64,000 bases of DNA, from the IMG/VR virus record IMGVR_UViG_3300017748_000002, positions 32,001-96,000 of that record; one strand, written 5' to 3'. Numbering within the stretch: position 1 is the stretch's first letter; each line of letters starts with the position of its first letter. The DNA is from a virus. Below are positions 24,557 through 54,178 of the stretch, piece after piece. The notes under the pieces were generated by a model, which was given only the letters and a program-made list of their open reading frames with translations, did not search any database and was not told where the DNA came from. Both the position numbers and the translations under genes were made by a program.

Positions 24557-24586
24557 ATACTACCCTCCGGATTAAATTCTTACTTT

Positions 24587-24616
24587 ATTATACACCATTT
24601 ATGTTCTCCCGTAAAC
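24587..24616 (-). promoter_or_regulatory. Sigma70-type (T4 early-like) promoter
   Basis: Minus strand reads GTTTACG-17 nt-TATAAT (hexamer TTTACG 24615-24610, TATAAT 24592-24587), 30 nt upstream of the methyltransferase ATG. Confidence 0.6.
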
Positions 24617-25697: not shown

Positions 25698-25705
25698 TAT
25701 AAATA
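25698..25705 (+). promoter_or_regulatory. T4-type late promoter TATAAATA at the head of the rightward arm of the enzyme island
   Basis: Exact motif 32 nt upstream of the first plus-strand radical SAM gene. Confidence 0.75.
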
Positions 25706-25737
25706 CCTCGTGTAACACTATATATAAAGGTTTCATT

Positions 25738-38316: not shown

Positions 38317-39373
38317 CGTGAAAATGATACACTTCGAACCAACTCAAATGTGTCAGGCTTCTTGTCCTATGTGTGATAGGAATAAGAATGGCGGAGAAGT
38401 CAATCAACATTTAAAAGACGAGTCAATGACTTTGGAAGGTTTTCAGAAAGCCTTTTCACCAGAGTTCTTGGCACAACTTGAAACATTTTATTTCTGCGGT
38501 AATCATGGTGATCCAATCTTTGCTCCAGAAATGTTAGAGATAGCGGAGTATGTACGTGAGTGTAGTCCTGATATTCATATGTTTGTTACTACTAATGGTG
38601 GTGCTCGTAAACCTGAATGGTGGGAACGACTAGCCCCTATTGTAGACTTTGTCAACTTTTCGGTTGATGGCTTACAAGATACAAATCACTTCTATCGCCA
38701 AGGTGTAAAGTGGGATCATGTTGAAGAAAACATGTCTGCCTTCTGTGATGCTGGTGGTCATGCTAAATGGACATTTCTTGTATTCAACTATAACGAACAC
38801 CAAATTGAACAAGCTCGTATGTTTTCTAAGATTATTGGTGTAAAAGACTTTATAGTTAAAAAGTCAGGCCGATACATTAACACAGCTAATCTACAAAAGA
38901 AAGATGATCATCAAGCTGTTTTTCGTGGCCAAGACTCTATGCGATTATCTCCTCCAAAGAATCCAAAATATAGAAATAAAGCTATTGACGAGGACTATGA
39001 TAAGATCGTAGAAAAGTTTGGTTCAATGGACAACTTTATTGATGTTGCTGAGATCAAACCTAAGTGTATGCAGAAAAATGAGATCTATGTTTCGGCTGAA
39101 GGTTTAGTCTTTCCATGTTGCTGGTTAGCTGGCCAAGTCTATAAATGGTGGAGACCAGTTGAAGACTCACAAGAATATAAAGTGATTATGTCAACTGGAG
39201 GTTTTGAAAAGATTAACGTTCACTATACTCCACTTGAAAACATTATGGAAGGTGACTTCTTTGCAACAGTTAAGAATAGTTGGGATATTCATGGTGTTGG
39301 TCAAGGGCGAATGAAAACGTGTGGAACAAAATGTAATGTAGGATTTGATCCCTTCTTAGCGCAATGGACATGA
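38309..39373 (+). CDS. Radical SAM enzyme with C-terminal SPASM/twitch-like domain (subfamily C)
   Basis: CQASCPMC, GNHGDP, TNGG, SVDGL, NEHQIE, FPCCW, C..KC. Confidence 0.9.
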   Translation: MYNVKMIHFEPTQMCQASCPMCDRNKNGGEVNQHLKDESMTLEGFQKAFSPEFLAQLETFYFCGNHGDPIFAPEMLEIAEYVRECSPDIHMFVTTNGGARKPEWWERLAPIVDFVNFSVDGLQDTNHFYRQGVKWDHVEENMSAFCDAGGHAKWTFLVFNYNEHQIEQARMFSKIIGVKDFIVKKSGRYINTANLQKKDDHQAVFRGQDSMRLSPPKNPKYRNKAIDEDYDKIVEKFGSMDNFIDVAEIKPKCMQKNEIYVSAEGLVFPCCWLAGQVYKWWRPVEDSQEYKVIMSTGGFEKINVHYTPLENIMEGDFFATVKNSWDIHGVGQGRMKTCGTKCNVGFDPFLAQWT

Positions 39374-40308
39374 AAGTAGCTCAATTACAAGCCGATATTA
39401 CTACGTATTGTAATAGCCATTGTGGTGGATGTATACGAAATATTGATGGAGGAGAAACGTGTGTTGATCTAGTACATCTTCCACTTAATATCTTCAGAAA
39501 AATAAACTTTAGTGATATTGAAGTAGTATATTTTAATGGAGCTTATGGCGATTTTACAATGCACCCTGATGGTATTCAATTTATTGATTCTATTCCTGAG
39601 CACGTTGTCATTGATATTTCAACCAATGGTGGCACAAGAAATAAAGGATGGTGGCAGCTGCTGGCTAAAACACTCAGTAAATTCACAGCAAGAGTTAGCT
39701 TTGCAATCGATGGTCTATCCACAAATCATTTATACAGACGTGGAGTCGACACTGAAAAAGTTTTAGATAATGCAGAAGCATTTATTCAAGCTGGAGGAAG
39801 AGCCAGATGGAAGTATATTATGTTCGAACACAATAAGCATGAAATTGAAACTGCAAGTCAATTAGCTCGCGATATTGGATTCGAATCATTCGTAATGGTT
39901 GAATCATACAACGAAGAAATATATCAAAAGAAATATAAAAACTTTTCAGAAAGCGTTGCAAAAAGAATTCCGCTCGATGAATCGTATAATTGGAGATCAA
40001 GAAGTCTAGAATATCCTGAAGACTACGAAGATAACCACCCGTGTCGTTGGAGAAATAAAAGACGAGCTCAACTTGATGCGTGGGGTAATATATGGCAATG
40101 TTGTTACATGCCTTCGATAGCCACTCAAAAAGATACAAAAATGTTTGAAGAATTAAGCATGTTAAAGCTTGAAAATAATTTGCATTCAGATGAATACGAC
40201 AACATTCTTCAAAGTAGTTTCTTTGCTGAATTATTCGATGAACCTCTAGAAGCTTGCAAGAAATGTGAAGAGTACGATAATGAAAAAGTTAATTTTTCAA
40301 TTCTTTAA
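39364..40308 (+). CDS. Radical SAM enzyme with C-terminal SPASM/twitch-like domain (subfamily C)
   Basis: CNSHCGGC, GAYGD, TNGG, AIDGL, FEHNKHEIE, WQCCY, C.KC. Confidence 0.88.
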   Translation: MDMKVAQLQADITTYCNSHCGGCIRNIDGGETCVDLVHLPLNIFRKINFSDIEVVYFNGAYGDFTMHPDGIQFIDSIPEHVVIDISTNGGTRNKGWWQLLAKTLSKFTARVSFAIDGLSTNHLYRRGVDTEKVLDNAEAFIQAGGRARWKYIMFEHNKHEIETASQLARDIGFESFVMVESYNEEIYQKKYKNFSESVAKRIPLDESYNWRSRSLEYPEDYEDNHPCRWRNKRRAQLDAWGNIWQCCYMPSIATQKDTKMFEELSMLKLENNLHSDEYDNILQSSFFAELFDEPLEACKKCEEYDNEKVNFSIL

Positions 40309-40927
40309 AGAACAGCCTTTGTTTCATGGTGATGAACGAGATACACTCGGGGTGCAGATTGTTCCGTATTCTATTCGTACTGTTTCAAATTATGCTCAAC
40401 GAATAGGTGCTGATTATAAGTTTGTCTCAAATAGAAAATTTAACCATTTACCAAGTGTACATTCTGAAAAGCTTCAATGTCTTATGGAAACAGGATATGA
40501 CAAAGTCTTAGCTCTTGACACAGACATAATTATTCCACCAGATACAGAGATAGATATATTTAATGAATATCGGCATTCACAGCTTGCTCTTAGAGGTTCG
40601 CCAAAACATTTAGGTTTAATGTCACGAATAAACGGTGGTGTTGTTTTATGGGATAAACAAACTATTGAGTTAGTCCAACCTATGTTAAACGAACTTCTTC
40701 AGTTAAACACAAAAAGAGATTTAATGTGGCATGACGAACATTTTATTCAGAGTTGTTGGATGGAATACGATATTGGTGTGACTGGACTCAAATGGGAATG
40801 GAATCGAAACGGTGAAGAGTATCATGACTGGAAACAACCGGCGTACTTTATACACTATGGCGCTGTAACAGAAGCTCGGCTTGCTTTTGATAAAAAACAT
40901 TGGGATGACAGACTATGCGGATTTTAG
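40280..40927 (+). CDS. GT-A-like glycosyltransferase (GT8/GT34-like)
   Basis: YAQRIGADY, LALDTDI (DxD), INGGVVL, HDE, WN, FIHY. Confidence 0.68.
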   Translation: MKKLIFQFFKEQPLFHGDERDTLGVQIVPYSIRTVSNYAQRIGADYKFVSNRKFNHLPSVHSEKLQCLMETGYDKVLALDTDIIIPPDTEIDIFNEYRHSQLALRGSPKHLGLMSRINGGVVLWDKQTIELVQPMLNELLQLNTKRDLMWHDEHFIQSCWMEYDIGVTGLKWEWNRNGEEYHDWKQPAYFIHYGAVTEARLAFDKKHWDDRLCGF

Positions 40928-42237
40928 GTATTAGTGAAGGTTCACACGACGCAGCATGGACATTGGTTGAAGCAGCTACAATTGTAGAAGCTCATCATGT
41001 TGAGAGACATACTCGAGTAAAAAATGATAAGTGGTTAAACAAAGATCTTCTTCCAGAAGCTGACATTGTTGTAGGACACGAGAATAAGTATCGTGTTCGT
41101 AGTCGAAACGCAATTGCTGGTCAAGAACATCAACAAGAAAATATCGAAACAGATACTGACTATAACCACTACGACACTCATGCATGGGCTGGCTGGTCTA
41201 CTTCTTCATTTGAAGACTGTGATATTCTTTGTGTCGATGCTATTGGTGAAATGGAGACTGGCGCTGCATACACTATGCGAGATCGAGTGTTGACCAAAAC
41301 ATGGGAAATGAAATACCCAAAAAGTATTGGTCTAGCGTATTCTGCCGTGACTGCTGCTCTTGGTTATAAGCCTATGGAAGAAGAATATATTGTCATGGGT
41401 TTAGCTGCCTATGGCGAACCACTATATGACTTCGACTATCTTATGGATACCAATTGTCATAAAGGAATTGAACTGCCTAACGGAAGACCAGAAGATATTG
41501 CTGCATCAATTCAAGTATTCTATGAAAAGCAATTATTGAATCTTGTTAAAGAGTATTGCCATCACGAAAATCTAGTACTGATGGGTGGCTGCGCTTTGAA
41601 TTGTGTAGCCAATTCTAGAATCGAAGGAAAGAATATATGGATCATGCCAAATCCCGGAGATGCCGGTTCATCTCTTGGAGCAGTAGCTGCTTTTTACGAA
41701 GATAAATTAGATTGGGAGGGACCTTATCTTGGAACTAATATCGAAAATGAAATTAATCCTCGTGAGATTGCTCGATATATTGCTGAGCACGGTGTGTGTG
41801 GCGTGGCTAACGGTCGTGCTGAGTTTGGCCCTCGTGCCCTTGGTAATCGTAGCCTTCTTGCTGACCCCCGTCGCGATGTTAAAGACACGGTCAACGAAAT
41901 CAAAAGAAGACAAAAATTTAGACCCTTTGCACCGGCCATCTTGGAAGAATGTGCCGAGCAGTTTTTTGAAGGACCAATGAATGAGTACATGCAATTTGTG
42001 GCAAAAGCTAAACATGATTATAAGTCCGTCACTCATGTGGATGGGACGGCAAGAGTACAAATAGTCAGACAAAAGACTTATGGATCTCAGATTCGAAAGA
42101 TCCTTGAAGAATTTACTGATATTACTGGTTGTCCGATGTTATTGAATACAAGTCTCAATATTAAAGGAGAACCAATGGTTGATAGTTGGGAACACGCAGA
42201 AGAATGGATGAAAAAATACAACGTAAACGTCTTTTAA
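40915..42237 (+). CDS. O-carbamoyltransferase (NodU/CmcH/TobZ family)
   Basis: ILGISEG.HDAA, DAIGE, EY.VMGLAAYG, GGCALNCVAN, GDAGSSLGA, EFGPRALGNRSLLADP, FRPFAP, HVDGTARVQ, LLNTSLN.KGEP.V. Confidence 0.95.
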   Translation: MRILGISEGSHDAAWTLVEAATIVEAHHVERHTRVKNDKWLNKDLLPEADIVVGHENKYRVRSRNAIAGQEHQQENIETDTDYNHYDTHAWAGWSTSSFEDCDILCVDAIGEMETGAAYTMRDRVLTKTWEMKYPKSIGLAYSAVTAALGYKPMEEEYIVMGLAAYGEPLYDFDYLMDTNCHKGIELPNGRPEDIAASIQVFYEKQLLNLVKEYCHHENLVLMGGCALNCVANSRIEGKNIWIMPNPGDAGSSLGAVAAFYEDKLDWEGPYLGTNIENEINPREIARYIAEHGVCGVANGRAEFGPRALGNRSLLADPRRDVKDTVNEIKRRQKFRPFAPAILEECAEQFFEGPMNEYMQFVAKAKHDYKSVTHVDGTARVQIVRQKTYGSQIRKILEEFTDITGCPMLLNTSLNIKGEPMVDSWEHAEEWMKKYNVNVF

Positions 42238-43031
42238 TTACCGGCGGATGTAGCCACTCAGATAGCAACTATAGTGTTTATAAAAGCCGTAATATCAAGA
42301 CGTGGCCAGAACTCGTAGCTAGTCAATTAAACTGTGATTTAATAAATGTTGCTAAAAAGGGCATGGGAAATGACTATATCAGCGGTGCCTTAATGGATGC
42401 TGTGATGGATAATAAAGATCGTGATATTGTAGTTATGATCTTGTGGACATCCGGTGATAGGTGCAATCTATTCGACGTCGGTACGTTATGGCATCAAAGA
42501 GAAACGCTAGCATATCATGAAAAACGAAAATTAGAACCCGGACCTGATGGACCTGTTCCGGGAGAAGCCGATGCATCGTTTGAAGATGCTGTTTGGCCAT
42601 ATAGTGATGATTGGTTTTATATTGATGAAAAAACCTTAAATCATAATTTAAGATCTATATGGACTATTGATCATCTTTGTAGGACGTTAAGAATACCTAT
42701 ATATCATAGACAAGCATATTCATTAGTTAATTCTATCACGTACACCGGCATGTATCATTATGAAGGCCAATACACCGATCTAGAAATAAAAATGAATCAG
42801 CTCGAGAGGCAGCATAAACTTCTTCAAGCAGTACCGAAGAGTAGATGGTACATTGATTATCGTGATTGGCGTAATGGATTTAAAATTGGTAATATGCCAC
42901 AGATGTGGATTAACGATGGAACGAATGGAGAACCTGTTGATGGCCATCCAAATCAAAGAGGGCATGAATGGATAGCAAAAGACTTCTTATCACTGCAGGA
43001 TGCAGCTTTACAGAACCAACGTTCTATTTAG
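42204..43031 (+). CDS. SGNH-like esterase or acyltransferase (array copy 1)
   Basis: LLITGGCSHS, WPELVA, NVAKKGMGND, DRDIVVMILWT, DGHPNQRGH; likely start ATG 42204. Confidence 0.72.
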   Translation: MDEKIQRKRLLITGGCSHSDSNYSVYKSRNIKTWPELVASQLNCDLINVAKKGMGNDYISGALMDAVMDNKDRDIVVMILWTSGDRCNLFDVGTLWHQRETLAYHEKRKLEPGPDGPVPGEADASFEDAVWPYSDDWFYIDEKTLNHNLRSIWTIDHLCRTLRIPIYHRQAYSLVNSITYTGMYHYEGQYTDLEIKMNQLERQHKLLQAVPKSRWYIDYRDWRNGFKIGNMPQMWINDGTNGEPVDGHPNQRGHEWIAKDFLSLQDAALQNQRSI

Positions 43032-43729
43032 AAAAAAATATCCTTCCTTGGCCGAATATTATTGCTGATGGAGTAGGATTTGATATTTTAAATGTTGGCA
43101 GAGGTGGAGCAGGACAAGACTATATTTCAAATGCGGTTATCGATGCAGTGATGGAAAATCAAGATCGAGATCCAATTGTCATGGTGCTTTGGTCAGAGTT
43201 TTCTAGAATTAATCTATATGATTTTTGTACAAAATGGGTATCAACAAATAGCAGAGTTCTTGATACAATTCCTAAGCCTCCATCTGAAAATATGAATCCA
43301 CATGTGGGTATGACTATGAGTGAAAAAGATATTATGATAGCAAGAAATCAATTTAGAATCATGTGGAGAACTAAGAAATTTGTTGAGGATCTAGGCTTTG
43401 AGTTTTTTGCAAAGATAGGTATTAGCAGCCTCTATCAAATCATGCAGATAGCTGATGGTGGAGACAGAGAAAAACGAGCTATTCACTATGGAATGCTGAG
43501 AAAAAACATTTTAAAAGATTTTTACTTTCAGAATTCTGGTATCACTATGAAAGAACTTGAAGAAGGTTTACCGCAGCATCCAAGAGAAACTGATCCTCAA
43601 TCTTTTCTAGACACCGGAATATTTTTAGAGTGTCGACACCCAAATCAGGCAGGACACGAAATCATTGCTGATGCTTTTCTAGGAAAGTATTTAAAAGCAC
43701 ACGAACCACCGGTATTCATCTATGACTAA
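42968..43729 (+). CDS. SGNH-like esterase or acyltransferase (array copy 2)
   Basis: LLITAGCSFT, NVGRGGAGQD, DRDPIVMVLWS, CRHPNQAGH. Confidence 0.72.
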   Translation: MDSKRLLITAGCSFTEPTFYLEKNILPWPNIIADGVGFDILNVGRGGAGQDYISNAVIDAVMENQDRDPIVMVLWSEFSRINLYDFCTKWVSTNSRVLDTIPKPPSENMNPHVGMTMSEKDIMIARNQFRIMWRTKKFVEDLGFEFFAKIGISSLYQIMQIADGGDREKRAIHYGMLRKNILKDFYFQNSGITMKELEEGLPQHPRETDPQSFLDTGIFLECRHPNQAGHEIIADAFLGKYLKAHEPPVFIYD

Positions 43730-44639
43730 AAAACTTCTTATCACTGGCGGATGTAGTAATACTACGCAGAAATATTGGGCCTATACTGAAAAGTCAATTA
43801 TCGTTTGGCCAACAATTGTAGCACAAGATATGGACTGGGATCTATTAAATCTTGGAATTGCTGGTTCATCTAATGATAGTATTGAAAATTCTGTGTATGA
43901 CGCTGTTTTAGAGAATCAAGATAGAGACATTGTTGTAATGATGTTCTGGACAGAACCGTGTAGAGGCACATGGTGGGATCTAGATCATTATCAATTACAC
44001 GGTACACGAGACAGATATACTCTTTGGTCTGGTGTTGAAAAGAAGTATCCAGAAATCGATCATGTTGAATTTTGTCGAAGATTTGACCAGCTTGATGATT
44101 GGAGCTTTTTAGCTTGGTTGAAAGACAGAAGTTACTTTCCAAACAATTGGGCAAAAGAACCATTTGACCAACATCTCAAATACATGTATCTAATTCAAGA
44201 TATTATGAAAAGACATTTATTGTCATTAGCATATAACGACGACAGGATGTTAGAAGTCGATGCACAGATGGTAGACTTCAGTCTCAGATCTATGGTTCGT
44301 CTAAAAGGTTTTCTCGATTCACTAAAAATACCAACCGTTCATAAGTATAGTTTATCAATGACAGAAACTATGCCTTGGTCGTATCCTCATTGGAAAGATG
44401 ATCCATTAGACATTAAAGAAAAAGCAATGATGATGAGAAGAAAAGAAGGTCTTCAACGGCATTGTAGTAAACATCCACGTATTAAAGAAATGGGAATGTC
44501 TCGCAAAGATTGGCAAAATGGTTGGTGCGATTTTAATAAGAGAGAACAAGGATATTTACTTGACTGCGGTCACCCTAATCAAAAAGGACAGAACCTTATA
44601 GCTGATGAGTTTATCGAATGCGTAAACTCCTTATTGTAG
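43722..44639 (+). CDS. SGNH-like esterase or acyltransferase (array copy 3)
   Basis: LLITGGCSNT, NLGIAGSSND, DRDIVVMMFWT, CGHPNQKGQ. Confidence 0.72.
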   Translation: MTKKLLITGGCSNTTQKYWAYTEKSIIVWPTIVAQDMDWDLLNLGIAGSSNDSIENSVYDAVLENQDRDIVVMMFWTEPCRGTWWDLDHYQLHGTRDRYTLWSGVEKKYPEIDHVEFCRRFDQLDDWSFLAWLKDRSYFPNNWAKEPFDQHLKYMYLIQDIMKRHLLSLAYNDDRMLEVDAQMVDFSLRSMVRLKGFLDSLKIPTVHKYSLSMTETMPWSYPHWKDDPLDIKEKAMMMRRKEGLQRHCSKHPRIKEMGMSRKDWQNGWCDFNKREQGYLLDCGHPNQKGQNLIADEFIECVNSLL

Positions 44640-45505
44640 GCGGAGACAGTAATACAGATTCTACGTATACAGAAAACGTAAAGAACAACATTTTTTCATG
44701 GCCACATTCTGTCGCGGACAAAATGGATTGGGACTTGCTAAACGTTGCTCAAATGGGACGTTCTAATGAGTCAATAGAGAATAGAGTTTATGACGCTGTT
44801 GTAGAGAATCAAGACAGAGATATTGTCGTGATGGTTTTATGGTCTCAATCGATCAGGCAATCACCGTTTGATCTTTTTAATATTATATTTACAAACGACA
44901 AAAGACAATTCAACGAATTTCAGACTTCTAAATTTCTAACAAATTTTCCGGGAATGGATATTGAAAAGTGGGAAGATATTCTTTTTATTGAAAATAATAA
45001 TTTAAGCTATAATAAATGGATTGAAACAAGAGAATATTTGCCAAAGTCTGCAGATTATAATCAGCCATATGATTTACAGACTAAACATACGTATATACTA
45101 GAACAAATACTTAAATTCAAATTTCAAGATACCGATGATGTGTATCATCTTGATGAAAAGATTTTACACTTCAATCTCAGATCTATGAGAAGATTAAAAC
45201 TTTTTCTTGACAGCTTAGGTATTCGTAGTATATTTAAGTCTGGGCTTTCAGTGACTCGTAGCATTCCAGGAATGTTTTCTCCTTGGATTCAAGATCATGA
45301 TCTAAAGCAAAAAACACTCAATATAAAAAGGCTAAATAGATTGAATAGTGTTTGTAAAGAAAAGTTAGATTTTGAATTAAGTGATTGGGAAGAAGGATTA
45401 ATCTGGGCTTTGAGTAAGCACGGTCATGTGATGGAATGTAACCATCCAACTCAAACTGGTCATGAAATAATTGCTAAGGAATTTATAAAATGCGCAAACT
45501 ATTAA
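44618..45505 (+). CDS. SGNH-like esterase or acyltransferase (array copy 4)
   Basis: LLIVGGDSNT, NVAQMGRSNE, DRDIVVMVLWS, CNHPTQTGH. Confidence 0.72.
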   Translation: MRKLLIVGGDSNTDSTYTENVKNNIFSWPHSVADKMDWDLLNVAQMGRSNESIENRVYDAVVENQDRDIVVMVLWSQSIRQSPFDLFNIIFTNDKRQFNEFQTSKFLTNFPGMDIEKWEDILFIENNNLSYNKWIETREYLPKSADYNQPYDLQTKHTYILEQILKFKFQDTDDVYHLDEKILHFNLRSMRRLKLFLDSLGIRSIFKSGLSVTRSIPGMFSPWIQDHDLKQKTLNIKRLNRLNSVCKEKLDFELSDWEEGLIWALSKHGHVMECNHPTQTGHEIIAKEFIKCANY

Positions 45506-46317
45506 TTGTTGGCGGATGTAGTTGGTCTAATCCGAACGAAGAATGCTATCACGTTGCTGGGATCGATAAGATCTGGCCTGAAATGGTAGCAGAATTTCTT
45601 GACATGGATTTAATTAACGTATCAGAAGGTGGAGCTGGAAACGATTATATTTACGGTCAGACATTAGATGCTATCGAAGAAAACAAAAATCGTGATATTG
45701 TCGTTATGGCTCTTTGGTCGCAGGCAATCCGAATGGTGCCATTTGATTTACCGATCGGTCAATTTACATTTGGTGTTCATACTCCAATGTTGGTACCGCC
45801 TATTGGTCCGCTCAAAGAAGATATTCAAGAAAGATTTAGAGATCTTTTTTGGTTACACGTTTATGATCAGGATGCTCCGATGCATCTTCAATTAACAAAG
45901 GAAGAATTCTGGACAAAAATTGCGAATGTTTCTCTTCGAAATATTTACATGCTTGATCACTACTGTAAAACAAGAGATATTCCTATTCTTCATCACCGTG
46001 CTCTTCATACTCTTGCTGGCATTGAATGGTTATTGAAAAAGCAAATCAATTTTCAATTGAGAAAACAAGTCTTTGATGCTTGCCAAAACAATCAATATTA
46101 TCAGAAGATTCAAAAATTTAAAAATATCGTAGGACATCCAAATTTCTTTGAACCGGGTTCTAGTTGTTTTGATCTCTACGAAAAATATTACATTACACCA
46201 CAAGAAAAACACCCAAATACACAAGGGCATATGTTAATTGCTAACAGTTTTGTAAACAAATATATAGAACTATACGAAGAAAGATCTACATCAGAACCGA
46301 GTTTTGTCTATGAATGA
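45490..46317 (+). CDS. SGNH-like esterase or acyltransferase (array copy 5)
   Basis: LLIVGGCSWS, NVSEGGAGND, NRDIVVMALWS, EKHPNTQGH. Confidence 0.72.
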   Translation: MRKLLIVGGCSWSNPNEECYHVAGIDKIWPEMVAEFLDMDLINVSEGGAGNDYIYGQTLDAIEENKNRDIVVMALWSQAIRMVPFDLPIGQFTFGVHTPMLVPPIGPLKEDIQERFRDLFWLHVYDQDAPMHLQLTKEEFWTKIANVSLRNIYMLDHYCKTRDIPILHHRALHTLAGIEWLLKKQINFQLRKQVFDACQNNQYYQKIQKFKNIVGHPNFFEPGSSCFDLYEKYYITPQEKHPNTQGHMLIANSFVNKYIELYEERSTSEPSFVYE

Positions 46318-47410
46318 TTTGAAATGGAGTCAATACGACTTCACAAAAATACCTTTTAATGATATTGTAAGTGTCGGCCAACGCACGATGATGTATCGTG
46401 ACTTGTTTACAGTGAGTTGGTTGCTCGGTCGATTCTGTAATTATTCTTGTTCATATTGTTGGCCATACGCATCAAGTCGTGAAAAAGACCATAGGCCAAT
46501 TGATTTGATTCTTATGACAATTGACGAGATTAAAAGACAATCTCGCAAGAATGAATATAATTCTTTTCATTTTAGTTTTAGTGGCGGTGAACCTACGTTC
46601 CATCCACAATATTTAGAAATTATGGAATACCTTGCTGATGATGTTCCTAACTGTAACTATCATTCAGTCCATATGACTTCTAATATTTCTCGTAAGATGA
46701 AGTGGTTTGAAGAATATGCTAAAATATGTTCGCGGTTTAATCGATCAAGTATCACAGCTTCATGCCATAGAGAACATGTTAATACCCAAGAAAAAGTTGC
46801 AGAGTTCGCTGACAAGCTTGAATACTGCCAATCACAAGACATCCAAGTAACTATTAACCAAGTGATGCTACCAGACAAATTTGAGCAGTGTTGGGAAGAC
46901 GCACTATATTTCCACGAAAGAGGTATCAATGTTACTCTTAAACCTCAGTCTGATCCTACTGCCAGTTTTATTGTTGATGGATATACTGAATCAATGCTTG
47001 AAAAATTACGTAACGGCATGCCTCAAAGAGGATTTACCGACATCAAAAAACAAATTACCAGACCGAGACCGAACGTCGAATTAGATCTTCGTTATGAAAC
47101 AACTGGTGTTCCACAACATATGCAAGTTGAACTTGAAGATTCAAAAGGACAAAAATATTATATGGATCAAGCTGAACGGTTCAACACATTCGAGTTTAAT
47201 AAATTTGAAGGTTGGAATTGTGAATCCGGATATAGATCTATTATAATCAGAGAACCGGACGGATCTATAAAAAGATCTTACTCGTGTAATGATGAGCCAC
47301 TTGGTTATATTCAATCTGGGTTTAAATTATTCGATAAACCAATGCCGTGTATCACAAAAACATGTGTTTCTTCTGCAGATTCTAAGATCCCAAAGAAGAA
47401 AATTGTATAA
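46310..47410 (+). CDS. Radical SAM enzyme with C-terminal twitch-like domain (subfamily B)
   Basis: CNYSCSYC, SGGEPT, W.C.SG...DG.I.RSYSC...PC....CVSSAD; ATG 46310. Confidence 0.9.
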   Translation: MNDLKWSQYDFTKIPFNDIVSVGQRTMMYRDLFTVSWLLGRFCNYSCSYCWPYASSREKDHRPIDLILMTIDEIKRQSRKNEYNSFHFSFSGGEPTFHPQYLEIMEYLADDVPNCNYHSVHMTSNISRKMKWFEEYAKICSRFNRSSITASCHREHVNTQEKVAEFADKLEYCQSQDIQVTINQVMLPDKFEQCWEDALYFHERGINVTLKPQSDPTASFIVDGYTESMLEKLRNGMPQRGFTDIKKQITRPRPNVELDLRYETTGVPQHMQVELEDSKGQKYYMDQAERFNTFEFNKFEGWNCESGYRSIIIREPDGSIKRSYSCNDEPLGYIQSGFKLFDKPMPCITKTCVSSADSKIPKKKIV

Positions 47411-47465: not shown

Positions 47466-47816
47466 ATGGCTGAGTACGAAGAATTCACAATTGACCAAGG
47501 CAGCGATGTGGCTATTGAGCTAGAGCTCGTAGATCACACAGGCGCGAAAAAAGACTTGGTTGGCCATACCGTAACAGCTTCAATGAAGAAAAGTTATAGC
47601 GATAGTTCTGGGGAAGCAACCAACTTCACTTCTATCGTTTCAACTCCATCTACTTCCGGAGTTGTTAACCTCAGCCTCACTAGCACTCAAACCTCGGCGT
47701 TAAACAAAGGCCGGTATGTATATGATGTAGAACTTTCTTTTGTCGATAGTAGCTCGACTACAATTACAGAAAGAATTCTTGAAGGCCGGATCCAGGTTAC
47801 GCCATCTGTAACATAA
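47466..47816 (+). CDS. Small Ig-like virion protein (fibre adaptor-like)
   Basis: F.IDQGSD, LSLT.TQT.AL..GRYVYDVEL, RILEG.I.VTPSVT pattern common beside fibre genes in T4-like phages. Confidence 0.7.
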   Translation: MAEYEEFTIDQGSDVAIELELVDHTGAKKDLVGHTVTASMKKSYSDSSGEATNFTSIVSTPSTSGVVNLSLTSTQTSALNKGRYVYDVELSFVDSSSTTITERILEGRIQVTPSVT

Positions 47817-47825
47817 GGATCGAAT

Positions 47826-50800
47826 ATGGCCAGCACTAGACGGACATACGTAAAACGTATATCGATTGGGCGCCCTATTGCAAGTGTCAATCAGGCAGCA
47901 TCCGGTGTTGTATCTGCGCAATCGAGGGCTGCTGGTCAAATACTAATAAATGACGCAAGCACTAATCTTTTCCAAGCAGGTGATTTAATTGCTGGTCACG
48001 GTATTAACAAAGTTTTTGATTCTACCGGCCGGTCACTTTCGCTTGCTCTTGATTCTTCCGATCTTAAATCTATAATCGATTCTAACTACGTTGCTTTTGT
48101 GATGGGACAGGACGTTGATCGTGTCTTTGTTGATTCAGCATACGTTGAACAAAATTCTCTTGATTCCGAAAGAACATTATCGTTACTTGATTCTGAGCTT
48201 AAGAATTGGACTACAAGTATAATTCCATACTATGATAGCCAATTAGATCTTGGTAGTCCAACTAATAAGTGGCGTAAACTATATCTTTCTGGTAATACTA
48301 TTGTTCTTGGTGGTTTAAACCTTGGAGATCAAGGTGGAACATTTGCTGTTACAGATTCAGCCGGTGTTGTAGCTGCATACGATCTTACAGGTAATACCAC
48401 AAATGATCTAGCAGAAGGTAGTAATAATTTATATTATACAAGAGCTCGATTTGATTCTGCTCTTGGTGATGATGTATCAACAGCCACTATTCGTAGTTAC
48501 TTCTCGTCTATTGATTCTGGCGGTGATGGTGCTTTCTCATACGATTCAACAAATGGTGTATTCACTTATCGCGGACCAAGTGCTGCAGAAGTCAGAGCGC
48601 ATTTCTCGGCTCAAGGTGATCTATCATACGATTCTTCGACTGGCGTATTTAGCTTTGATGTTGAGCAAGTTTATACTCAAGCAAACTTTGAATCTGATCT
48701 CAGTCTAGCTGTTGCTGGTGGAACTGGTATCACTTATGATTCTTCCACTCAAACAATTAGTATTACAAACACTGGTGTAGGTGCTGGAACTTATGGTTCA
48801 TCAACTCTTATTCCGGTCTTTACTGTCAATGCTCAAGGTCAATTAGATTCTGTTGGTGAAGTCTTAGTTGCTGGAGTGACTGGAGTATCTTGGGATTCAA
48901 GTGTTGAACAACTTACAATATCAACTGCAGATGGTGGATCATTTGTTGCAACCGTCAATGGGTTCAATAACCTTCAGGCAGATTCCGCTTCAATTACAAA
49001 TGTATCTGGTACCTCTGCGAATTATGCTACAATTAATGCGACAACTGGTACTATCAGTCAGCTCTCTGTTGATTCTGCTCATATTGGTGTTATTGACAAC
49101 AACACTTTAAGAACAAATTCTCTTGATGCAGATTCAGGCGTTGTAACTAATATCTCTGGTACAAATCTGAATTATGGCGCTGGTCATGTAAGTCAACTCA
49201 CTTCAGATTCAGCTAGATTGGCAATTATTACTACTCCTAATCTTACTGCAGATTCTGGTGTTGTTACTAATATCTCAGGTACTTCATTAAATTATGGAAC
49301 TGGTAACTTTACAAGTGCTACTGCGGATGGTTTAACAGTCAATGGAGTATCAAATCTAGATTCAACAAATGTTGACGGATCTCTTTATGTTACTGGAAAC
49401 CTTACTGTACAAGGTACAACCACAACTGTTAATTCGACAACTGTAACTATAAACGATAAAAATATTGTCGTAGCAGATTCCGCTGCTGATTTAACTGCGC
49501 TAAACGGTGCTGGTTTCACTATGGGTGGAGCGAATATCACAACTCCGCCTGAAATGAAGTATGTATCAACTGGCGATTTGATTAATTTCAATAGAGCAGT
49601 TGATATTGATGGTCATGTTAATGCAGACTCTGCAACGTTTGTCAACTTAAATATTACAGGATTATCCACCCAGACAATTACTAGAGCTGCTACAGTCGAT
49701 TCAGGTACTTATGGTAGTGCTACACTCATTCCCGTAATGACTGTGAATGCTTCAGGTTTCATTGATAGTATTGGCGAGATTGCAGTTGCCGGTGTTTCAG
49801 GAGTTTCATGGGATTCTGGAAACGAGCAGCTCACAATTAACACCGCTGATGGTGGATCATTTGTAACAACAATTAACGGATTCGATTCAGCACAGATTAC
49901 GAATCTATCTGGTACTGCATTAAATTACGCTCAAGTTCTTTCAGATTCAGCCAAAGTTATTGATATATCTGGTACTACTTTGAATTATGGTACTGGGCAA
50001 ATCAGTCAATTAACGGTTGATTCTGGTACGTTTACTACATTAGCAATTAATGGTGTAACAGTTGATTCTGATTGGGTAACGTCATTAGCTAAGAATTTTG
50101 AAGGTGATATTACAATCACCGAAACTGTTAGTGGTTCTACAGCAGCACCAACTCTTACTCTCTTTAAAGATAATAGCTCACCATCAGATTCTGATATATT
50201 AGGTGAAATTGCTTTCAAAGGTCACGACAGCGCTGGTAATGCTGAAGTATACGCCAACATTAGAGGTGTTATTGGCGATGCTACTAATGGTCAAGAAGAA
50301 GGAATTCTAGAACTTTCGGTAATTGATTCGTCTCAGCTGAAAGCTGTTGCTCGTATCACACCTAGTAGTGTTGATATTAGTAGCGCTCATGTGAATGTTA
50401 CAGCTGGCGATTTATTCGTCAACGGCAACACTGATATATCTGGTGACTTATCATTAAAAGATGAATTTGTTGATTCATCATGGGTAGCAGCTCGAGCGAC
50501 TGTTCTTACTGCATCTCAGTTTAGCATAACAAACGTTGATGGTGGCCCTGATTTTGGTCCGAACGTACTTCTTGATAGAAATAGTGCTTCTCCTCAGGCA
50601 AATGATGACCTTGCAAAAATTACCTTTAGAGGTAGAAATTCTGCAGATTCAAACTTAGATTATGCTGCAATTGAATCAATGATTGCTGATCCTACCGCTA
50701 ATACTGAAGACGGTTCACTAAGGTTTTTAATCGCTCAAAATGGTTTCAATCGTCTTAAAGCAACTATTGATAACACGGGATTTGTATTAGGTCCACAAGA

Positions 50801-51119
50801 AAAAATAATCTTTAGCACAGATTCGTATACACAAAGTGTCGCACCTGGTTCTTATACAAGCAATCATGCGCTTCTTTTACCAGATTCGTCTGGTACGCTT
50901 TTGACTAGAGATTTTGTCACAACTCTGATTGACTCAGCATACGTTGGAGCTCGTCAAGGCGCAACTGGTCTTCTTCTTAATATTAAAGATAGAGACTCAA
51001 ATGTAACAGAAGTTGTAATTACACAGGCAGCAACAGTTGTATCTGGTGCTCCTATTGGGTTTGGTAATACCATACAAGTATTGCTCGAAGATAGTTCAGC
51101 TTTTACTATCGGTCTTTAA
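47826..51119 (+). CDS. Long tail-fibre-like protein, extremely Asp-Ser rich
   Basis: [41 protein letters not shown] repeats, two C-terminal receptor-like modules; about 40 DS dipeptides. Confidence 0.8.
48783..49883 (+). repeat. Internal duplication in the fibre gene (about 61-aa module at 48783-48965 and 49701-49883, plus short DS...ISGT.LNY repeats)
   Basis: [60 protein letters not shown] versus [60 protein letters not shown]. Confidence 0.85.
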
Positions 51120-51158: not shown

Positions 51159-52502
51159 ATGGCAGATCGTATTCCACTCGTGATTGAAGGCTCTCAGATT
51201 AGAGAGATTTCAAATGGTGATCGAATTGATATTAGCGGAAACGCTTTACAAGTCGGTGGTCATATTACACCAGATACAGATTCATCGTATGACATTGGTA
51301 CTTCATCTCTAAAATTTAGAGATATTTACTTATCGTCTGGCACTATTCACCTTGGTGGTGTTAAGTTACGTGCTGATGGAAATAAGTTATCGATACAAGA
51401 TAGCACAGGATCAACCGCAGGTATTACAGCCGCAACACTCGGCACATTAGGAACTGATGATCTTGCTGAAGGTTCAACTAATCTCTTTACTACAGCTGCT
51501 CGGACACGAAGTCATCTTCAAGTAACAGATGCTGGTGGTGATGGTTCTTTTGCCTTTGATTCTGCCTCAGGTAAATTTACATACACCGGACCAAGCGCTG
51601 CTGAAGCAAGAGCACATCTAAATGTTGCAACTGGTACTGGATTAGGAAGTTTAGCTTACGATTCAGCCCGAGGTCAATTTACATTGACTGGAATAACACA
51701 AGCTAATGTTATGTCAACCATGCAAGCAGGCACTGGAGTGGGTATCGATTCTGCCAGCGGTACACTTTCTATTGGTCAGGCTGTAGGAACAACTGACTCA
51801 GTAACATTTGCTGGTTTATACTCTTCAGGTAACGTAGTTCTTGGTGGTAACCTTACAGTTAACGGAACAACTACAACAGTTAATGCAACAAATAGTTTAA
51901 TTGCTGATCCTTTGATTGAATTGAATACAGGTGCAGGTTCGAATGCCAACGATCTTGGATTTGTATTTGAACGTGGTTCAACTGGAGATAACGCAGCATT
52001 AATTTGGGATGAGTCAGAAGACAAGTTTAAGATAGGTACAACCACTGCGACCGGTGCTTCAACTGGCAATATGACAGTTACAACAGGATCCTTAATAGCC
52101 AATCTTGTTGGTAACGTAACAGGTAACGTATCTGGTTCGGCTGGTTCTGCAACTGGTAACGCTGCTACTGCAACAGCATTAGCAACCGCTAGAGCAATTG
52201 CTCTCAGTGGCGATGTTGTTGGTACTGCAGACTTTGATGGTACTGCGGGTATCAGTATTAGCACCACAATACAAGCAAATAGTGTTGCTCTTGGAACTGA
52301 TACAACTGGTAACTATGTTGGTACGATTACTGGTGGAACAGGCATTACTTCAAGTGGAGCAACTTCTGGTGAAGGTATCGCTCATACGATTTCAATAACA
52401 GCTGGATCAATTAGTTCAACTCAACTGGCCAGTGCTTCTACTTTGACAATTAAGAATACTTCTGGAACTGTACTCAAGACAGTAATTGGAGCCGGTAGCT
52501 AA
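51159..52502 (+). CDS. Tail-fibre-like protein
   Basis: Shares modules with 47826-51119 (TDDLAEGSTNL, GGDGSF.FDS..GKFTYTGPSAAEARAH, GNLTVNGTTTTVN); GNVTGNV and ATATALATAR.I fibre repeats. Confidence 0.8.
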   Translation: MADRIPLVIEGSQIREISNGDRIDISGNALQVGGHITPDTDSSYDIGTSSLKFRDIYLSSGTIHLGGVKLRADGNKLSIQDSTGSTAGITAATLGTLGTDDLAEGSTNLFTTAARTRSHLQVTDAGGDGSFAFDSASGKFTYTGPSAAEARAHLNVATGTGLGSLAYDSARGQFTLTGITQANVMSTMQAGTGVGIDSASGTLSIGQAVGTTDSVTFAGLYSSGNVVLGGNLTVNGTTTTVNATNSLIADPLIELNTGAGSNANDLGFVFERGSTGDNAALIWDESEDKFKIGTTTATGASTGNMTVTTGSLIANLVGNVTGNVSGSAGSATGNAATATALATARAIALSGDVVGTADFDGTAGISISTTIQANSVALGTDTTGNYVGTITGGTGITSSGATSGEGIAHTISITAGSISSTQLASASTLTIKNTSGTVLKTVIGAGS

Positions 52503-53260: not shown

Positions 53261-54178
53261 ATGGCTCGAAATTTATACATTAGAGACAACGTAAGGTCTG
53301 AGCAAAACCTATACGAAGATATCGTTATTGAGTCTCTCAAAATCTATGGGCAAGACGTGTTTTATCTTCCTCGAGATACTGTCTATGAAGACAGAGTCTT
53401 TGGAGATGAGATTCCTGCGCGCTATAATTCAAGCTATAAAATAGAAATGTATATCGATAACCTTGAAGGATTCGACGGAGAAGGAGATTTATTTACTCGC
53501 TTCGGAGTTGAAATCCGCGATGAGGCTACTTTTGTTGTGTCTAGGCGTAGATGGCGTAGCACTATTAGTATGTTTGATAACGAGATCAATAGTGAAAGAC
53601 CAAGAGAAGGTGATCTCATTTATCTTCCACTTTCTAATTCTATGTTTCAAATCACACATGTCGAGCATGAAACACCGTTCTATCAATTAGCGAATCTTCC
53701 AGTTTATAAATGCAGAGCACAACTCTTTGAATATAACGATGAAGACTTTGATACAAGTGTTGATGTTATTGATGATATTGAGCGGCAAGGTGCTTATCAA
53801 TATACTCTTACACTCGACTCGGCAAGTGCGTATACTTTACCGGGTCAAACAGTATCACAGACTCTTTCAAGTGGAGTGACTATTAGCGGCGAAGTAATTC
53901 GATATTCTGATAGCGATGGAATTCTATACGTTGGCCACGTCGGTTCAGACGATGGATTATACCACAACTTCTACGTATCTGATTCTGCAGGATCTAAACT
54001 TACGATTAGTGGTAGAACTAACCTTGCGATTGGTGATTCTGATCTTACAGTCACTGCAATAGGCGAAGTCAATACTATATCAGAAAACGAACAAAATGCT
54101 GATTTTGGCGCAGCCGGAGATGATTTCCTCGACTTTAGTGAAGCAAATCCGTTTGGTGATATATCGGGGAATGACTAA
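53261..54178 (+). CDS. gp14: Neck protein
   Basis: EQNLYED.VIESLKIYGQDV.YLPR, KIEMY, RP.EGDLIYLP, VEHE.PFYQL, FLDFSEANPFG. Confidence 0.95.
   Translation: MARNLYIRDNVRSEQNLYEDIVIESLKIYGQDVFYLPRDTVYEDRVFGDEIPARYNSSYKIEMYIDNLEGFDGEGDLFTRFGVEIRDEATFVVSRRRWRSTISMFDNEINSERPREGDLIYLPLSNSMFQITHVEHETPFYQLANLPVYKCRAQLFEYNDEDFDTSVDVIDDIERQGAYQYTLTLDSASAYTLPGQTVSQTLSSGVTISGEVIRYSDSDGILYVGHVGSDDGLYHNFYVSDSAGSKLTISGRTNLAIGDSDLTVTAIGEVNTISENEQNADFGAAGDDFLDFSEANPFGDISGND

What the first reader, a model, noticed from the sequence alone, without database searches (positions are those of the whole stretch)
47826..51119. Extreme Asp-Ser bias in the long fibre: a candidate modification sequon next to the enzyme island
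Seen (hand count): about 40 D-S dipeptides in 1097 aa, so about 40 of about 88 Asp are followed by Ser. I found no D-T although Thr is abundant, and only about 7 S-D. Sites are spread over unrelated domains, often after a hydrophobic residue and before A/S/G, and use varied codons, so this is not a DNA repeat. Established: D-(S/T) is the O-glycosylation sequon in Bacteroidota. Inference: selection for many Ser acceptor sites read by an island enzyme, giving a densely decorated fibre. Radical SAM or QueC-like chemistry directly on the Asp-Ser unit, or use of a host system, are alternatives.
Basis: partly seen in the sequence, partly recalled or inferred. Interest (0 to 1): 0.9.

Follow-up and report, generated by a model that had tools for sequence, protein, structure and literature searches.

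The report
Asp-Ser-studded tail fibre, marine phage
The long tail fibre of this uncultured marine T4-like phage really does follow almost half of its aspartates with serine, but the pattern belongs to a widespread family of fibre building blocks and does not track the neighbouring radical-SAM enzyme island, so it is most likely a structural turn motif, with a sugar-tag role still unproven.

Summary
Observation confirmed exactly: 40 DS among 88 Asp in 1097 aa (expected 10.6; z=10 against 20,000 shuffles), 0 DT, 7 SD. It is under selection. In 36 homologues, DS columns are 80% identical against 42-45% for other Asp/Ser, and Ser-to-Thr changes are rare.

The link to the adjacent island fails in both directions. 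G002 lacks homologues of the island's radical SAM genes, and its relatives G004/G005 hold one radical SAM gene each; all keep DS-rich fibres. G008, G009 and G010 carry orthologous islands of 15-19 radical SAM genes but have no DS-enriched protein. Homologous modules also exist without DS.

In the AlphaFold models, DS sits at hairpin turns, strand starts and helix N-caps. Best reading (0.5): a structural punctuation motif of a fibre-module family.

Main rival (0.27): a Ser-specific modification tag read by a conserved GT25/GT25/GT8 cluster outside the window. That cluster co-occurs with DS-rich fibres, but shared ancestry confounds the pattern.

This scan has noted the same DS pattern before on other DNA (66 notes, at least 57 genomes).

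The parts
47826..51119 (+). Long tail fibre, 1097 aa, 40 DS among 88 Asp. The C-terminal domains resemble the T5 L-shaped tail fibre.
   Evidence: counts. (625 homologues at E<=1e-3). (5604 representatives). (Foldseek 4uw7, E 2.9e-5). (VIA: Bd1334 fibre Z 8.8, T5 pb1 Z 8.2, T4 gp34 Z 5.2).
47466..47816 (+). LtfC-like small protein (fibre assembly/attachment), conserved directly upstream of the fibre in nearly all related loci
   Evidence: PF23926, E 0.0014, below cut-off. (phrog_3304 'L-shaped tail fiber protein assembly', E 6.8e-16). (homologue upstream of the fibre in most loci).
51159..52502 (+). Second fibre protein, 447 aa, mild DS excess (6 of 26 Asp, z 1.8)
   Evidence: (phrog_356, phrog_7389 tail fibre).
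20964..47410 (.). Enzyme island: 12 radical SAM ORFs by Pfam, an FkbM methyltransferase, a QueC/PP-loop-like protein, a carbamoyltransferase, SGNH-like paralogues and two weak GT-like ORFs. It is adjacent to the fibre, but comparative data do not tie it to the DS bias.
   Evidence: Pfam. (phrog_1962 glycosyltransferase, E 4e-7 and 5e-5). (11 PF04055 matches in G000). (decoupling from DS).
46304..47410 (+). Radical SAM gene immediately upstream of the LtfC-like gene and the fibre. It is 88-92% identical across the clade, whereas the fibres are only about 36-45% identical (one, L001, is 71%).
   Evidence: PF04055, E 1.6e-14.. Orthologues at 58-66% identity in phages without DS-rich proteins.
13543..16656 (+). 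Large DUF4815 baseplate protein, which I take to be the VrlC equivalent (left border of the host recognition cluster)
   Evidence: PF16075, E 6.6e-57. That DUF4815 marks VrlC is my inference from position, not a call result. Architecture as in PMC7029224 (passages).
53261..54178 (+). gp14-type neck protein (right border of the host recognition cluster)
   Evidence: PF11649, E 1.2e-35.

Best explanation
The DS dipeptides are a structural punctuation motif of a large family of modules from which marine T4-like phages build fibres. The general pattern is hydrophobic-x-hydrophobic-Asp-Ser-small-x-hydrophobic. The chain leaves a buried strand, and Asp and Ser form a tight polar turn or cap (Asx-turn / ST-turn / helix N-cap type). 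A small residue allows the turn, and the chain then re-enters the core. Each module (IDSAYV helix starts, YDSxTGxF hairpins, [12 protein letters not shown] units, hairpins of the C-terminal domains) carries DS at a fixed register. A fibre assembled from many such modules therefore accumulates about 40 sites. The motif travels with the fibre modules, not with the neighbouring radical SAM island. Shown: the bias, its conservation, its independence from the island, and its position at predicted turns and caps. Inferred: the hydrogen-bonding role of Asp and Ser, and the reason why Ser rather than Thr is required (tight packing).
For: 1. The bias is family-wide. All 120 listed homologues have DS/Asp of 0.19-0.53 (median 0.37). 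The 134 further representatives have a median of 0.30, with DT at 0.45 of expectation.
2. The sites are conserved. Twelve DS sites are invariant in 36 sequences with 47% mean column identity. DS columns are 0.80 identical against 0.45 and 0.42 for other Asp and Ser.
3. Predicted structure. In the C-terminal model (pLDDT 71.6), 9 of 10 DS lie at hairpin turns, strand starts or helix starts, including all 4 in blocks with pLDDT of 88 or more. In the full-length model, 10 of 10 DS in blocks with pLDDT of 50 or more lie at such boundaries, against 45% of all residues there.
4. DS-poor homologues keep Asp or Asn at the first position. Among the 15 commonest replacement types that one search printed, plus the 8 retained DS, 38 of the 75 non-gap positions have Asp or Asn first (my tally; rarer types were not printed, so this is a minimum).
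5. Independence from the island. G002 has no island radical SAM homologue, and G004 and G005 each give one PF04055 match; their fibres have DS/Asp of 0.31-0.37. G008, G009 and G010 hold orthologous islands but no DS-enriched ORF of 350 aa or more.
6. The trait follows fibre type rather than phage backbone. C48C1 is as close to the window (TerL 71%) as G001 and G002 (73-76%), yet its long fibre has DS/Asp of 0.09-0.15.
Against: 1. The fold of the modules does not demand DS. At the same identity to the query (0.37 against 0.40), DS-poor homologues keep 8 of 80 aligned DS sites, while DS-rich ones keep 330 of 721. CRP-207 gp46 has TN, DA and SA at three aligned DS sites, a gap at a fourth, and YNS in its own extra repeat.
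2. The strict choice of Ser over Thr (0 DT; 8 Thr among 149 substitutions at DS-Ser, against 326 of 1441 at other Ser) is what an enzyme's specificity would give. Turn geometry alone does not obviously explain it.
3. DS-rich fibres co-occur with a conserved GT25/GT25/GT8/unknown cluster.
4. Both models are monomers of a presumably trimeric fibre. The full-length one is poor (pLDDT 44.6), and 12 of 40 DS fall where it predicts no structure at all.
5. No solved structure of a DS-type module was found.
Confidence: 0.5

Rival explanations
1. DS is a Ser-specific acceptor tag for a phage-encoded modification, most likely O-glycosylation. The reader would not be the adjacent island but a conserved, syntenic four-gene cluster (GT25, GT25, GT8, unknown 233 aa) at G000:C1:22029-24690, about 55 kb upstream of the fibre and outside the window. 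Exposed turns of the folded fibre would be decorated in the cytoplasm before assembly.
For: The cluster was identified by Pfam (PF01755 at E 1.4e-15 and 1.4e-7; PF01501 at E 2.4e-5). All four genes have homologues in G001, G002, G003, G015, G017 and G018. G004 gives four GT25 family matches. The record that holds L068 and L259 has a homologue of the first GT25 gene. Those records whose fibre region was seen hold DS-enriched fibres (z 6-11 in G002, G004, G015, G017, G018 and the L068 record). GT25 is absent from the DS-poor C48C1, HTVC008M, G006, G009, G010 and G007, and C48C1 also lacks the GT8-like gene. Ser-only usage and DT avoidance fit an enzyme's specificity. Homologous modules in phages without the cluster use NS/DA/DN/NT. 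Earlier follow-ups of this scan reached similar leads on other genomes; these are unchecked notes, not independent evidence.
Against: Every cluster-bearing genome in which marker genes could be scored lies in one clade (TerL 73-80% to the window). The co-occurrence may therefore be a single inherited pair of traits. G001 and G003 have the cluster but only weak DS excess (0.22-0.24, z about 3), and G003 has large host-recognition-cluster ORFs at 0.05-0.10. G008 (DS-poor) has one GT25 hit, G013 has one, and HTVC008M has a GT8-like gene. The literature reads such GT25/GT8 genes in pelagimyophages as host LPS modification (PMC7029224, passages). The high positional conservation of DS is more typical of structural residues. 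No modification has been observed.
Confidence: 0.27
2. One reading: an enzyme of the adjacent island (a GT-like ORF, a radical SAM enzyme or the QueC-like ATPase) acts on the Asp-Ser unit of the fibre.
For: The island is adjacent to the fibre. In the close clade, all 10 loci with upstream DNA carry the island, with the radical SAM gene w46304 directly before the LtfC-like gene and the fibre. This clade has the highest DS/Asp (0.38-0.53). Two leftward ORFs weakly match a PHROG glycosyltransferase family.
Against: The two traits are decoupled in both directions. G002, G004 and G005 have DS-rich fibres and only 1-2 radical SAM genes. G001 and G002 have no tblastn homologue of any island enzyme except the carbamoyltransferase. 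G008, G009 and G010 have orthologues of w46304 (58-66%), w25738 (53-67%), w38309 (36-42%) and the carbamoyltransferase; G008 and G009 also have the QueC-like gene and the GT-like w25005 (39-40%). None has an ORF of 350 aa or more with DS z of 3 or above. Among distant DS-rich fibres, DS/Asp covers a similar range with (0.18-0.39) and without (0.19-0.36) island homologues within 10 kb upstream (my reading rows).
Confidence: 0.05
3. DS-containing loops bind divalent cations (Ca2+ or Mg2+ of seawater), stabilising the fibre. The Asp carboxylates, with Ser hydroxyls, form the sites, some of them EF-hand-like.
For: The family profile at positions 211-284 matches calmodulin EF-hand loops (E 1.9e-5, two loops aligned). 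One source names a homologue 'Ca2+-binding EF-hand superfamily protein' (P0011). The phages are marine.
Against: The match is weak. The loop lacks the position-3 ligand, and it has Asp-Ser at positions 11-12 where EF-hands have Glu at 12 (my reading of the alignment). It concerns only about 2-3 of the 40 sites, and most DS contexts are not acidic loops.
Confidence: 0.08
4. A host general O-glycosylation system of the Bacteroidota type, with sequon D-(S/T)-(A/I/L/V/M/T), decorates the fibre.
For: DS followed by A/I/L/V/M/T occurs at 17 of 40 sites.
Against: Thr is never used (0 DT, expected 9.9) although the sequon accepts it. Twenty-three of 40 third residues do not fit. That system requires export to the periplasm (PMC8550257, introduction passage), whereas virion proteins assemble in the cytoplasm (established knowledge). 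The nearest named relatives are Kyanoviridae, and HTVC008M infects Pelagibacter, not Bacteroidota.
Confidence: 0.02

Closest known systems
Host recognition cluster of pelagimyophages and cyanomyophages (Zaragoza-Solas et al. 2020, PMC7029224; passages read)
   Same: [quoted passage not shown] It holds tail fibres together with glycosyltransferases and radical SAM cassettes. The window has the matching layout, if its DUF4815 protein at 13543 is the VrlC equivalent (gp14 is at 53261).
   Different: In the passages I read, the paper does not mention any Asp-Ser bias of the fibres. It reads the glycosyltransferases as modifiers of the host O-chain. The window's block is unusually rich in radical SAM genes (12 by Pfam).
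T5 L-shaped tail fibre pb1 (PDB 4uw7/4uw8) with its LtfC partner; T4 gp34 C-terminal region (5nxh, 4uxg); Bdellovibrio fibres Bd1334/Bd2439 (8oml, 8ol4)
   Same: The C-terminal domains give the best structural matches (Foldseek E 2.9e-5, probability 1.0; VIA Z 8.2-8.8). An LtfC-like gene sits directly upstream.
   Different: Sequence identity is 8-20% and TM-scores are low (0.25) because the models are monomers. No DS bias is known to me for these fibres (recalled, not tested here).
Asx-turn / ST-turn / helix N-cap motifs (general protein-structure knowledge, recalled)
   Same: Asp or Asn followed by Ser or Thr at the start of helices and in tight turns. DS here lies at predicted helix starts and hairpin turns, and DS-poor homologues keep Asp or Asn at the first position.
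   Different: Ordinary capping motifs tolerate Thr, Asn or Gly. Here Ser is nearly obligatory and DT is absent.
Bacteroidota general O-glycosylation, sequon D-(S/T)-(A/I/L/V/M/T) (PMC8550257; abstract and passages)
   Same: Asp immediately before the acceptor Ser.
   Different: Thr is never used, the third residue fits in only 17 of 40 sites, glycosylation there is periplasmic, and the host is probably not a Bacteroidota member.
SdgA/SdgB O-GlcNAcylation of staphylococcal Ser-Asp repeat adhesins (recalled; named also in earlier scan notes)
   Same: Ser next to Asp serves as the acceptor for dedicated soluble glycosyltransferases, with many sites per protein.
   Different: There the sites form long tandem SD runs of low complexity. 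Here they are dispersed single DS units at turns of folded modules, and no SdgB-like gene was sought or found.

Membership tests
Bacteroidota D-(S/T)-(A/I/L/V/M/T) O-glycosylation sequon | Acceptor may be Ser or Thr after Asp | tested here: not met
   DS 40, DT 0 (expected 9.9). DT is depleted family-wide.
Bacteroidota D-(S/T)-(A/I/L/V/M/T) O-glycosylation sequon | Third residue is A, I, L, V, M or T | tested here: not met
   17 of 40 fit. S (8), G (6), N (3), E, D, Q and Y make up the rest.
Bacteroidota D-(S/T)-(A/I/L/V/M/T) O-glycosylation sequon | Substrate is exported to the periplasm (export required for glycosylation, PMC8550257) | not tested
   No signal-peptide predictor was run. Virion fibres of tailed phages assemble in the cytoplasm (established knowledge).
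Pelagimyophage/cyanomyophage host recognition cluster | [quoted passage not shown] | tested here: met
   DUF4815 protein at 13543-16656, which I take to be the VrlC equivalent; gp14 at 53261; fibres at 47826 and 51159. Layout as in PMC7029224.
Pelagimyophage/cyanomyophage host recognition cluster | T4-like (Kyanoviridae-type) core genes | tested here: met
   gp14, gp15 and TerL by Pfam. TerL is 71% identical to Phage C48C1 (Kyanoviridae), about 48% to cyanophages and 45% to HTVC008M.
T5-type L-shaped tail fibre | C-terminal domains with the pb1 fold | tested here: inconclusive
   Foldseek 4uw7 at E 2.9e-5 and probability 1.0, but TM 0.26 and rmsd 20. VIA Z 8.2. The model is a monomer.
T5-type L-shaped tail fibre | LtfC-type partner gene next to the fibre gene | tested here: met
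   phrog_3304 at E 6.8e-16. PF23926 at E 0.0014, below its cut-off.
T5-type L-shaped tail fibre | C-terminal intramolecular chaperone removed by autoproteolysis | not tested
   No chaperone-domain family was matched in Pfam, and cleavage cannot be tested here.
EF-hand calcium-binding loop | 12-residue loop with ligands at positions 1, 3, 5 and 12 and Gly at 6 | tested here: inconclusive
   Profile match to calmodulin at E 1.9e-5. Positions 1, 5 and 6 fit; position 3 is Gly; positions 11-12 are Asp-Ser instead of x-Glu.
Ser-Asp repeat (Sdr-type) glycosylation substrates | Long tandem SD/DS dipeptide runs | tested here: not met
   DS sites are 9-58 residues apart and never in tandem runs (positions listed).

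The most novel reading that the evidence does not exclude
A clade of marine T4-like phages marks the exposed turns of its tail fibres with a strict Asp-Ser code. A conserved phage-encoded GT25/GT25/GT8 cluster, not the radical SAM island, reads that code and coats the fibre with sugars at about 40 serines per chain. This would be a virus-encoded, cytoplasmic, Ser-specific protein glycosylation system of a new kind.
Probability: 0.22. Interest if true: 0.8.

Novelty: new variant of a known kind. Interest (0 to 1): 0.45.

Why it matters
Tail fibres decide which cells a phage can attack, and these phages appear to belong to the marine T4-like group that includes pelagimyophages and cyanomyophages. 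A motif held at about 40 positions per chain under strong purifying selection is either a basic construction rule of a very large family of fibre modules (5604 cluster representatives match the fibre) or a modification code. Knowing which would help in modelling and engineering such fibres and in reading host range from metagenomes.

The negative result also matters. The radical-SAM-rich island next to the fibre needs another explanation, because orthologous islands exist far from any fibre gene in phages without DS-rich proteins.

Tried and rejected
Composition or GC bias as the cause was rejected. DS-poor fibre families sit in phages of similar GC (mostly 0.33-0.47; the window is 0.38). S-CREM2's 4971-aa fibre has 23 DS (expected 38) and 80 DT.

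A recent DNA repeat as the cause was rejected. Internal repeats are only 60-94% identical and use nine different hexamers. Old repeats do, however, account for roughly half of the sites.

Cultured relatives. tblastn of the fibre against 50,697 phage records gave 14 partial hits with at most 17% coverage. The N-terminal modules gave 10 weak hits. No cultured phage with a DS-rich fibre was found.

PHROGs gave no family for the fibre, and Pfam gave only a sub-threshold endosialidase hit. The profile search of PDB sequences found only EF-hand proteins.

The aligned-position comparison of distant fibres with and without island homologues within 10 kb (DS kept at 666 of 1520 against 276 of 860 positions) is noisy. 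It joins several HSPs of repeated modules, and the island-positive set includes the close clade. I use it only qualitatively.

The phyletic profile listed 26 G000 ORFs shared with G001 and G002 but not with G008, G009 or G010. Most simply reflect closer kinship (core identity 63% against 31-47%). Only the four-gene GT cluster was followed up.

G016 and G019 carry the GT cluster, but their records end before the fibre region, so they are uninformative.

Complex prediction was not used, because no binding claim is made. Read laying and the look-up of sequencing runs were not used. Supplementary files of papers were closed and not consulted; supplementary tables of PMC7029224 may list radical SAM or GT content per genome.

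That the DS bias is not in print rests (terms 'tail fiber', 'O-glycosylation', 'bacteriophage', 'sequon'; 36 papers held at least 3 of the 4 terms, 12 were listed, none relevant by title or abstract) and on the passages of PMC7029224 returned.
Full report
WHAT IS THERE. The ORF at 47826-51119 (+) encodes a 1097-aa protein. It lies in a T4-like phage genome: G000 is one contig of 123,332 bp, estimated 73% complete, and the window has 38% GC. The ORF sits between a large DUF4815 baseplate protein (13543-16656) and the gp14 neck, gp15 and large terminase genes (53261, 54441, 55538). If the DUF4815 protein is the VrlC equivalent, as I infer from its position, this is the 'host recognition cluster' described for pelagimyophages and cyanomyophages, which holds fibres together with glycosyltransferases and radical SAM cassettes (PMC7029224, passages).

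Directly upstream of the fibre is an LtfC-like gene. Downstream is a second fibre gene. The C-terminal 338 residues fold with mean pLDDT 71.6. Their best structural matches are the C-terminal domains of the T5 L-shaped tail fibre (Foldseek E 2.9e-5), Bdellovibrio fibres and T4 gp34. The protein is therefore a long tail fibre. By TerL, the nearest named relatives are Phage C48C1 (71%), cyanophages (about 48%) and Pelagibacter phage HTVC008M (45%). The host is unknown.

Counts are 88 Asp, 132 Ser, 124 Thr, DS 40 (expected 10.6), DT 0 (expected 9.9) and SD 7. In 20,000 shuffles DS averaged 10.5 (sd 2.9, maximum 23), giving z=10.1. DS is the most enriched dipeptide and DT the most depleted.

The local context is hydrophobic at -3 and -1, small (A/S/G in 26 of 40) at +2, and hydrophobic at +4 and +7. 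Nine different hexamers encode the 40 sites.

About half of the sites sit at fixed registers of old internal repeats that are now only 60-94% identical in DNA, so the sites are not all independent. Their survival through that divergence shows selection at the protein level.

Of the 65 ORFs I tabulated in the window, only this one stands out (z 9.0; the next is 3.4). The 23 rightward island ORFs at 25738-47410 have 21 DS among 525 Asp (my sum rows).

THE BIAS IS A CONSERVED FAMILY TRAIT. All 120 listed homologues have DS/Asp of 0.19-0.53 (median 0.37). Near-full-length relatives down to 36% identity have 0.38-0.53, with DT far below expectation.

In an alignment of 36 such proteins (mean column identity 47%), twelve DS sites are invariant. 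Mean identity is 0.80 for the Asp and 0.79 for the Ser of DS, against 0.45 and 0.42 for the other Asp and Ser. At DS-Ser only 8 of 149 substitutions are to Thr, whereas Thr is the commonest replacement at other Ser (326 of 1441).

The modules are very widespread: 5604 cluster representatives match at E of 1e-3 or better.

THE ADJACENT ISLAND DOES NOT EXPLAIN IT. The island (20964-47410) holds 12 radical SAM ORFs by Pfam, an FkbM methyltransferase, a QueC-like protein, a carbamoyltransferase and SGNH-like paralogues. Two ORFs match a PHROG glycosyltransferase family only weakly.

In the fibre's close clade the island is always present. All 10 loci with upstream DNA have it, with the radical SAM gene w46304 at 88-92% identity, while the fibres are only about 36-45% identical (one, L001, is 71%). 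Taken alone, that looks like linkage. Whole-record comparisons break it in both directions.

(i) DS-rich fibres without the island.
- G002 (144 kb, 87% complete) and G001 (149 kb, terminal repeats, 100%) have no tblastn homologue of any island enzyme except the carbamoyltransferase.
- They have only 2 and 3 dispersed radical SAM genes.
- G002's three fibres have DS/Asp of 0.31-0.37 (z 5.6-7.3), and G001's has 0.24 (z 3.7).
- G004 and G005 (one radical SAM gene each) have fibres at 0.31-0.33 (z 7.8-8.6).

(ii) The island without DS-rich proteins.
- G008 (177 kb, 100% complete), G009 (151 kb, 90%) and G010 (233 kb) carry 15, 16 and 19 radical SAM matches.
- All three have clear orthologues of w46304 (58-66%), w25738 (53-67%), w27159 (34-46%), w38309 (36-42%) and the carbamoyltransferase.
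- G008 and G009 also have the GT-like w25005 (39-40%) and the QueC-like gene.
- No ORF of 350 aa or more reaches DS z of 3, and every ORF of at least 500 aa (G008, G009) or 700 aa (G010) has DS/Asp of 0.19 or less, the large fibre-like ones 0.07-0.13 (60 ORFs were scanned in G010).
- In G008 and G009 the islands lie far from the fibre genes.

(iii) Neither trait. C48C1 (one radical SAM gene; long fibre 0.09-0.15), HTVC008M (one; fibres 0.11-0.19), G006 (none; 0.06-0.15) and roseophage CRP-207 (fibre 2 DS of 42 Asp).

Among distant DS-rich fibres, DS/Asp covers a similar range with and without island homologues within 10 kb upstream (0.18-0.39 against 0.19-0.36; my reading rows).

WHAT DS LOOKS LIKE STRUCTURALLY. 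The full-length monomer model is poor (pLDDT 44.6). Even so, all 10 DS in blocks with pLDDT of 50 or more lie at hairpin turns, strand starts or helix starts, against 45% of all residues in those blocks.

In the better C-terminal model, 9 of 10 DS are at such positions. These include the four in regions with pLDDT of 88 or more: DS788 before a strand, and DS801, DS834 and DS941 in hairpin turns (my mapping, model residue + 759). Helix-start sites are the recurrent (I/V)DS(A/S/N)(Y/W)V motif (sites 85, 747, 883, 1036).

This is what Asx-turn, ST-turn and N-cap motifs look like (recalled general knowledge). Exposed turns are also where a modifying enzyme would act, so position alone does not decide the question.

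EVIDENCE THAT KEEPS A MODIFICATION READING ALIVE.

First, the fold does not require DS. Fourteen of 254 homologues have DS/Asp of 0.13 or less. At the same identity to the query (0.37 against 0.40), these keep only 8 of 80 aligned DS sites, while DS-rich ones keep 330 of 721. The replacements are NS, DN, DA and NT. In cultured roseophage CRP-207 the aligned module reads TN, DA and SA where the query has DS, and its own extra repeat has YNS.

Second, the strict exclusion of Thr is unusual for a capping motif.

Third, a lead from earlier notes of this scan pointed to sugar-transferase genes, and I tested it here. A syntenic four-gene cluster lies at G000:C1:22029-24690, outside the window. It comprises GT25, GT25, GT8 and an unknown 233-aa protein (Pfam).
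- All four genes have homologues in G001, G002, G003, G015, G017 and G018. G004 gives GT25 family matches, and the record holding L068 and L259 has a homologue of the first GT25 gene.
- These records hold fibres with DS z of 6-11 (G002, G004, G015, G017, G018, the L068 record) or about 3 (G001, G003).
- GT25 is absent from C48C1, HTVC008M, G006, G007, G009 and G010. C48C1 also lacks the GT8-like gene.

C48C1 is informative because it is as close to the window by TerL (71%) as G001 and G002 (73-76%).

There are counter-points. Every cluster-bearing genome in which marker genes could be scored falls in one clade (TerL 73-80%), so this may be one inherited pair of traits. G001 and G003 have the cluster with only weak DS excess. 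DS-poor G008 and G013 each have one GT25 hit, and HTVC008M has a GT8-like gene (34% identity). No genome with DS-rich fibres and no GT cluster was seen, but few could be examined.

COMPARISON WITH KNOWN SYSTEMS. The Bacteroidota sequon D-(S/T)-(A/I/L/V/M/T) shares only the Asp-before-acceptor feature. Thr is unused here, 23 of 40 third residues do not fit, and that system needs export to the periplasm (PMC8550257, passage). Staphylococcal SD-repeat glycosylation (recalled) uses tandem runs, not dispersed units. Residues 211-284 resemble EF-hand loops (E 1.9e-5). This could mean cation binding at a few sites, but it does not explain 40.

VERDICT. This scan has noted it before on other DNA (66 notes in at least 57 genomes). 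The specific interpretation, a sequon read by the adjacent island, is contradicted by genomes that have one trait without the other.

My best explanation (0.5) is a structural punctuation motif intrinsic to a fibre-module family. The main rival (0.27) is a Ser-specific tag for a different, conserved GT cluster. Only mass spectrometry or a trimer structure will decide. The function of the radical-SAM-rich island remains unexplained, and it should be studied separately from the fibre.

Noticed in passing
G000:C1:22029-24690 (outside the window, about 8-10 kb before its start; L230:10030-12691): A syntenic four-gene cluster (GT25, GT25, GT8, unknown 233 aa). All four genes are conserved in G001, G002, G003 and G015-G019. 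It is absent from the DS-poor C48C1, G006, G009 and G010.
   Followed up: partly
window 48456-48677 (fibre aa 211-284): Two helix-loop units with D-x-G-G-D-G-x-hydrophobic loops match calmodulin EF-hand loops (profile E 1.9e-5). They may be cation-binding loops in the widespread [10 protein letters not shown]...GGDG...YDS module.
   Followed up: no
window 46304-47410 and 25738-27162; G008:C1:12668-13663 and 21235-22635; G010:C1 near 38909 and 51109: The radical SAM genes w46304 and w25738 have orthologues at 58-67% (G008, G009) and 53-66% (G010) identity in distantly related phages (TerL 33-47%). At least in G008 and G009 the island lies far from the fibres. The island therefore looks like an old, mobile, conserved pathway whose product is unknown.
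   Followed up: partly
L100:11873-15958 (G002:C1:71873-75958); G001:C1 about 66.9-71 kb: A mini-cluster in phages that lack the big island: a carbamoyltransferase (43-46% identical to window 40915), an unknown 282-aa protein, a radical SAM-SPASM enzyme (319 aa) and a GT25.
   Followed up: partly
L060:3567-9854, L071:4380-10427, L069:564-6686: A DS-rich ORF of about 2000 aa (68-72 DS among 179-190 Asp, z about 11) sits directly after the portal gene rather than in the host recognition cluster.
   Followed up: no
G017:C1:25936-27123 and 34247-35488: Short ORFs with even stronger bias than the fibre: 22 DS of 38 Asp (0.58) in 396 aa, and 16 of 37 (0.43) in 414 aa.
   Followed up: no
window 54441-55232 (gp15) and 18965-19552: Mild DS excess in gp15 (5 of 22 Asp, z 3.0) and in a 195-aa ORF next to the baseplate genes (6 of 14, z 3.1). 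The numbers are too small to judge.
   Followed up: no
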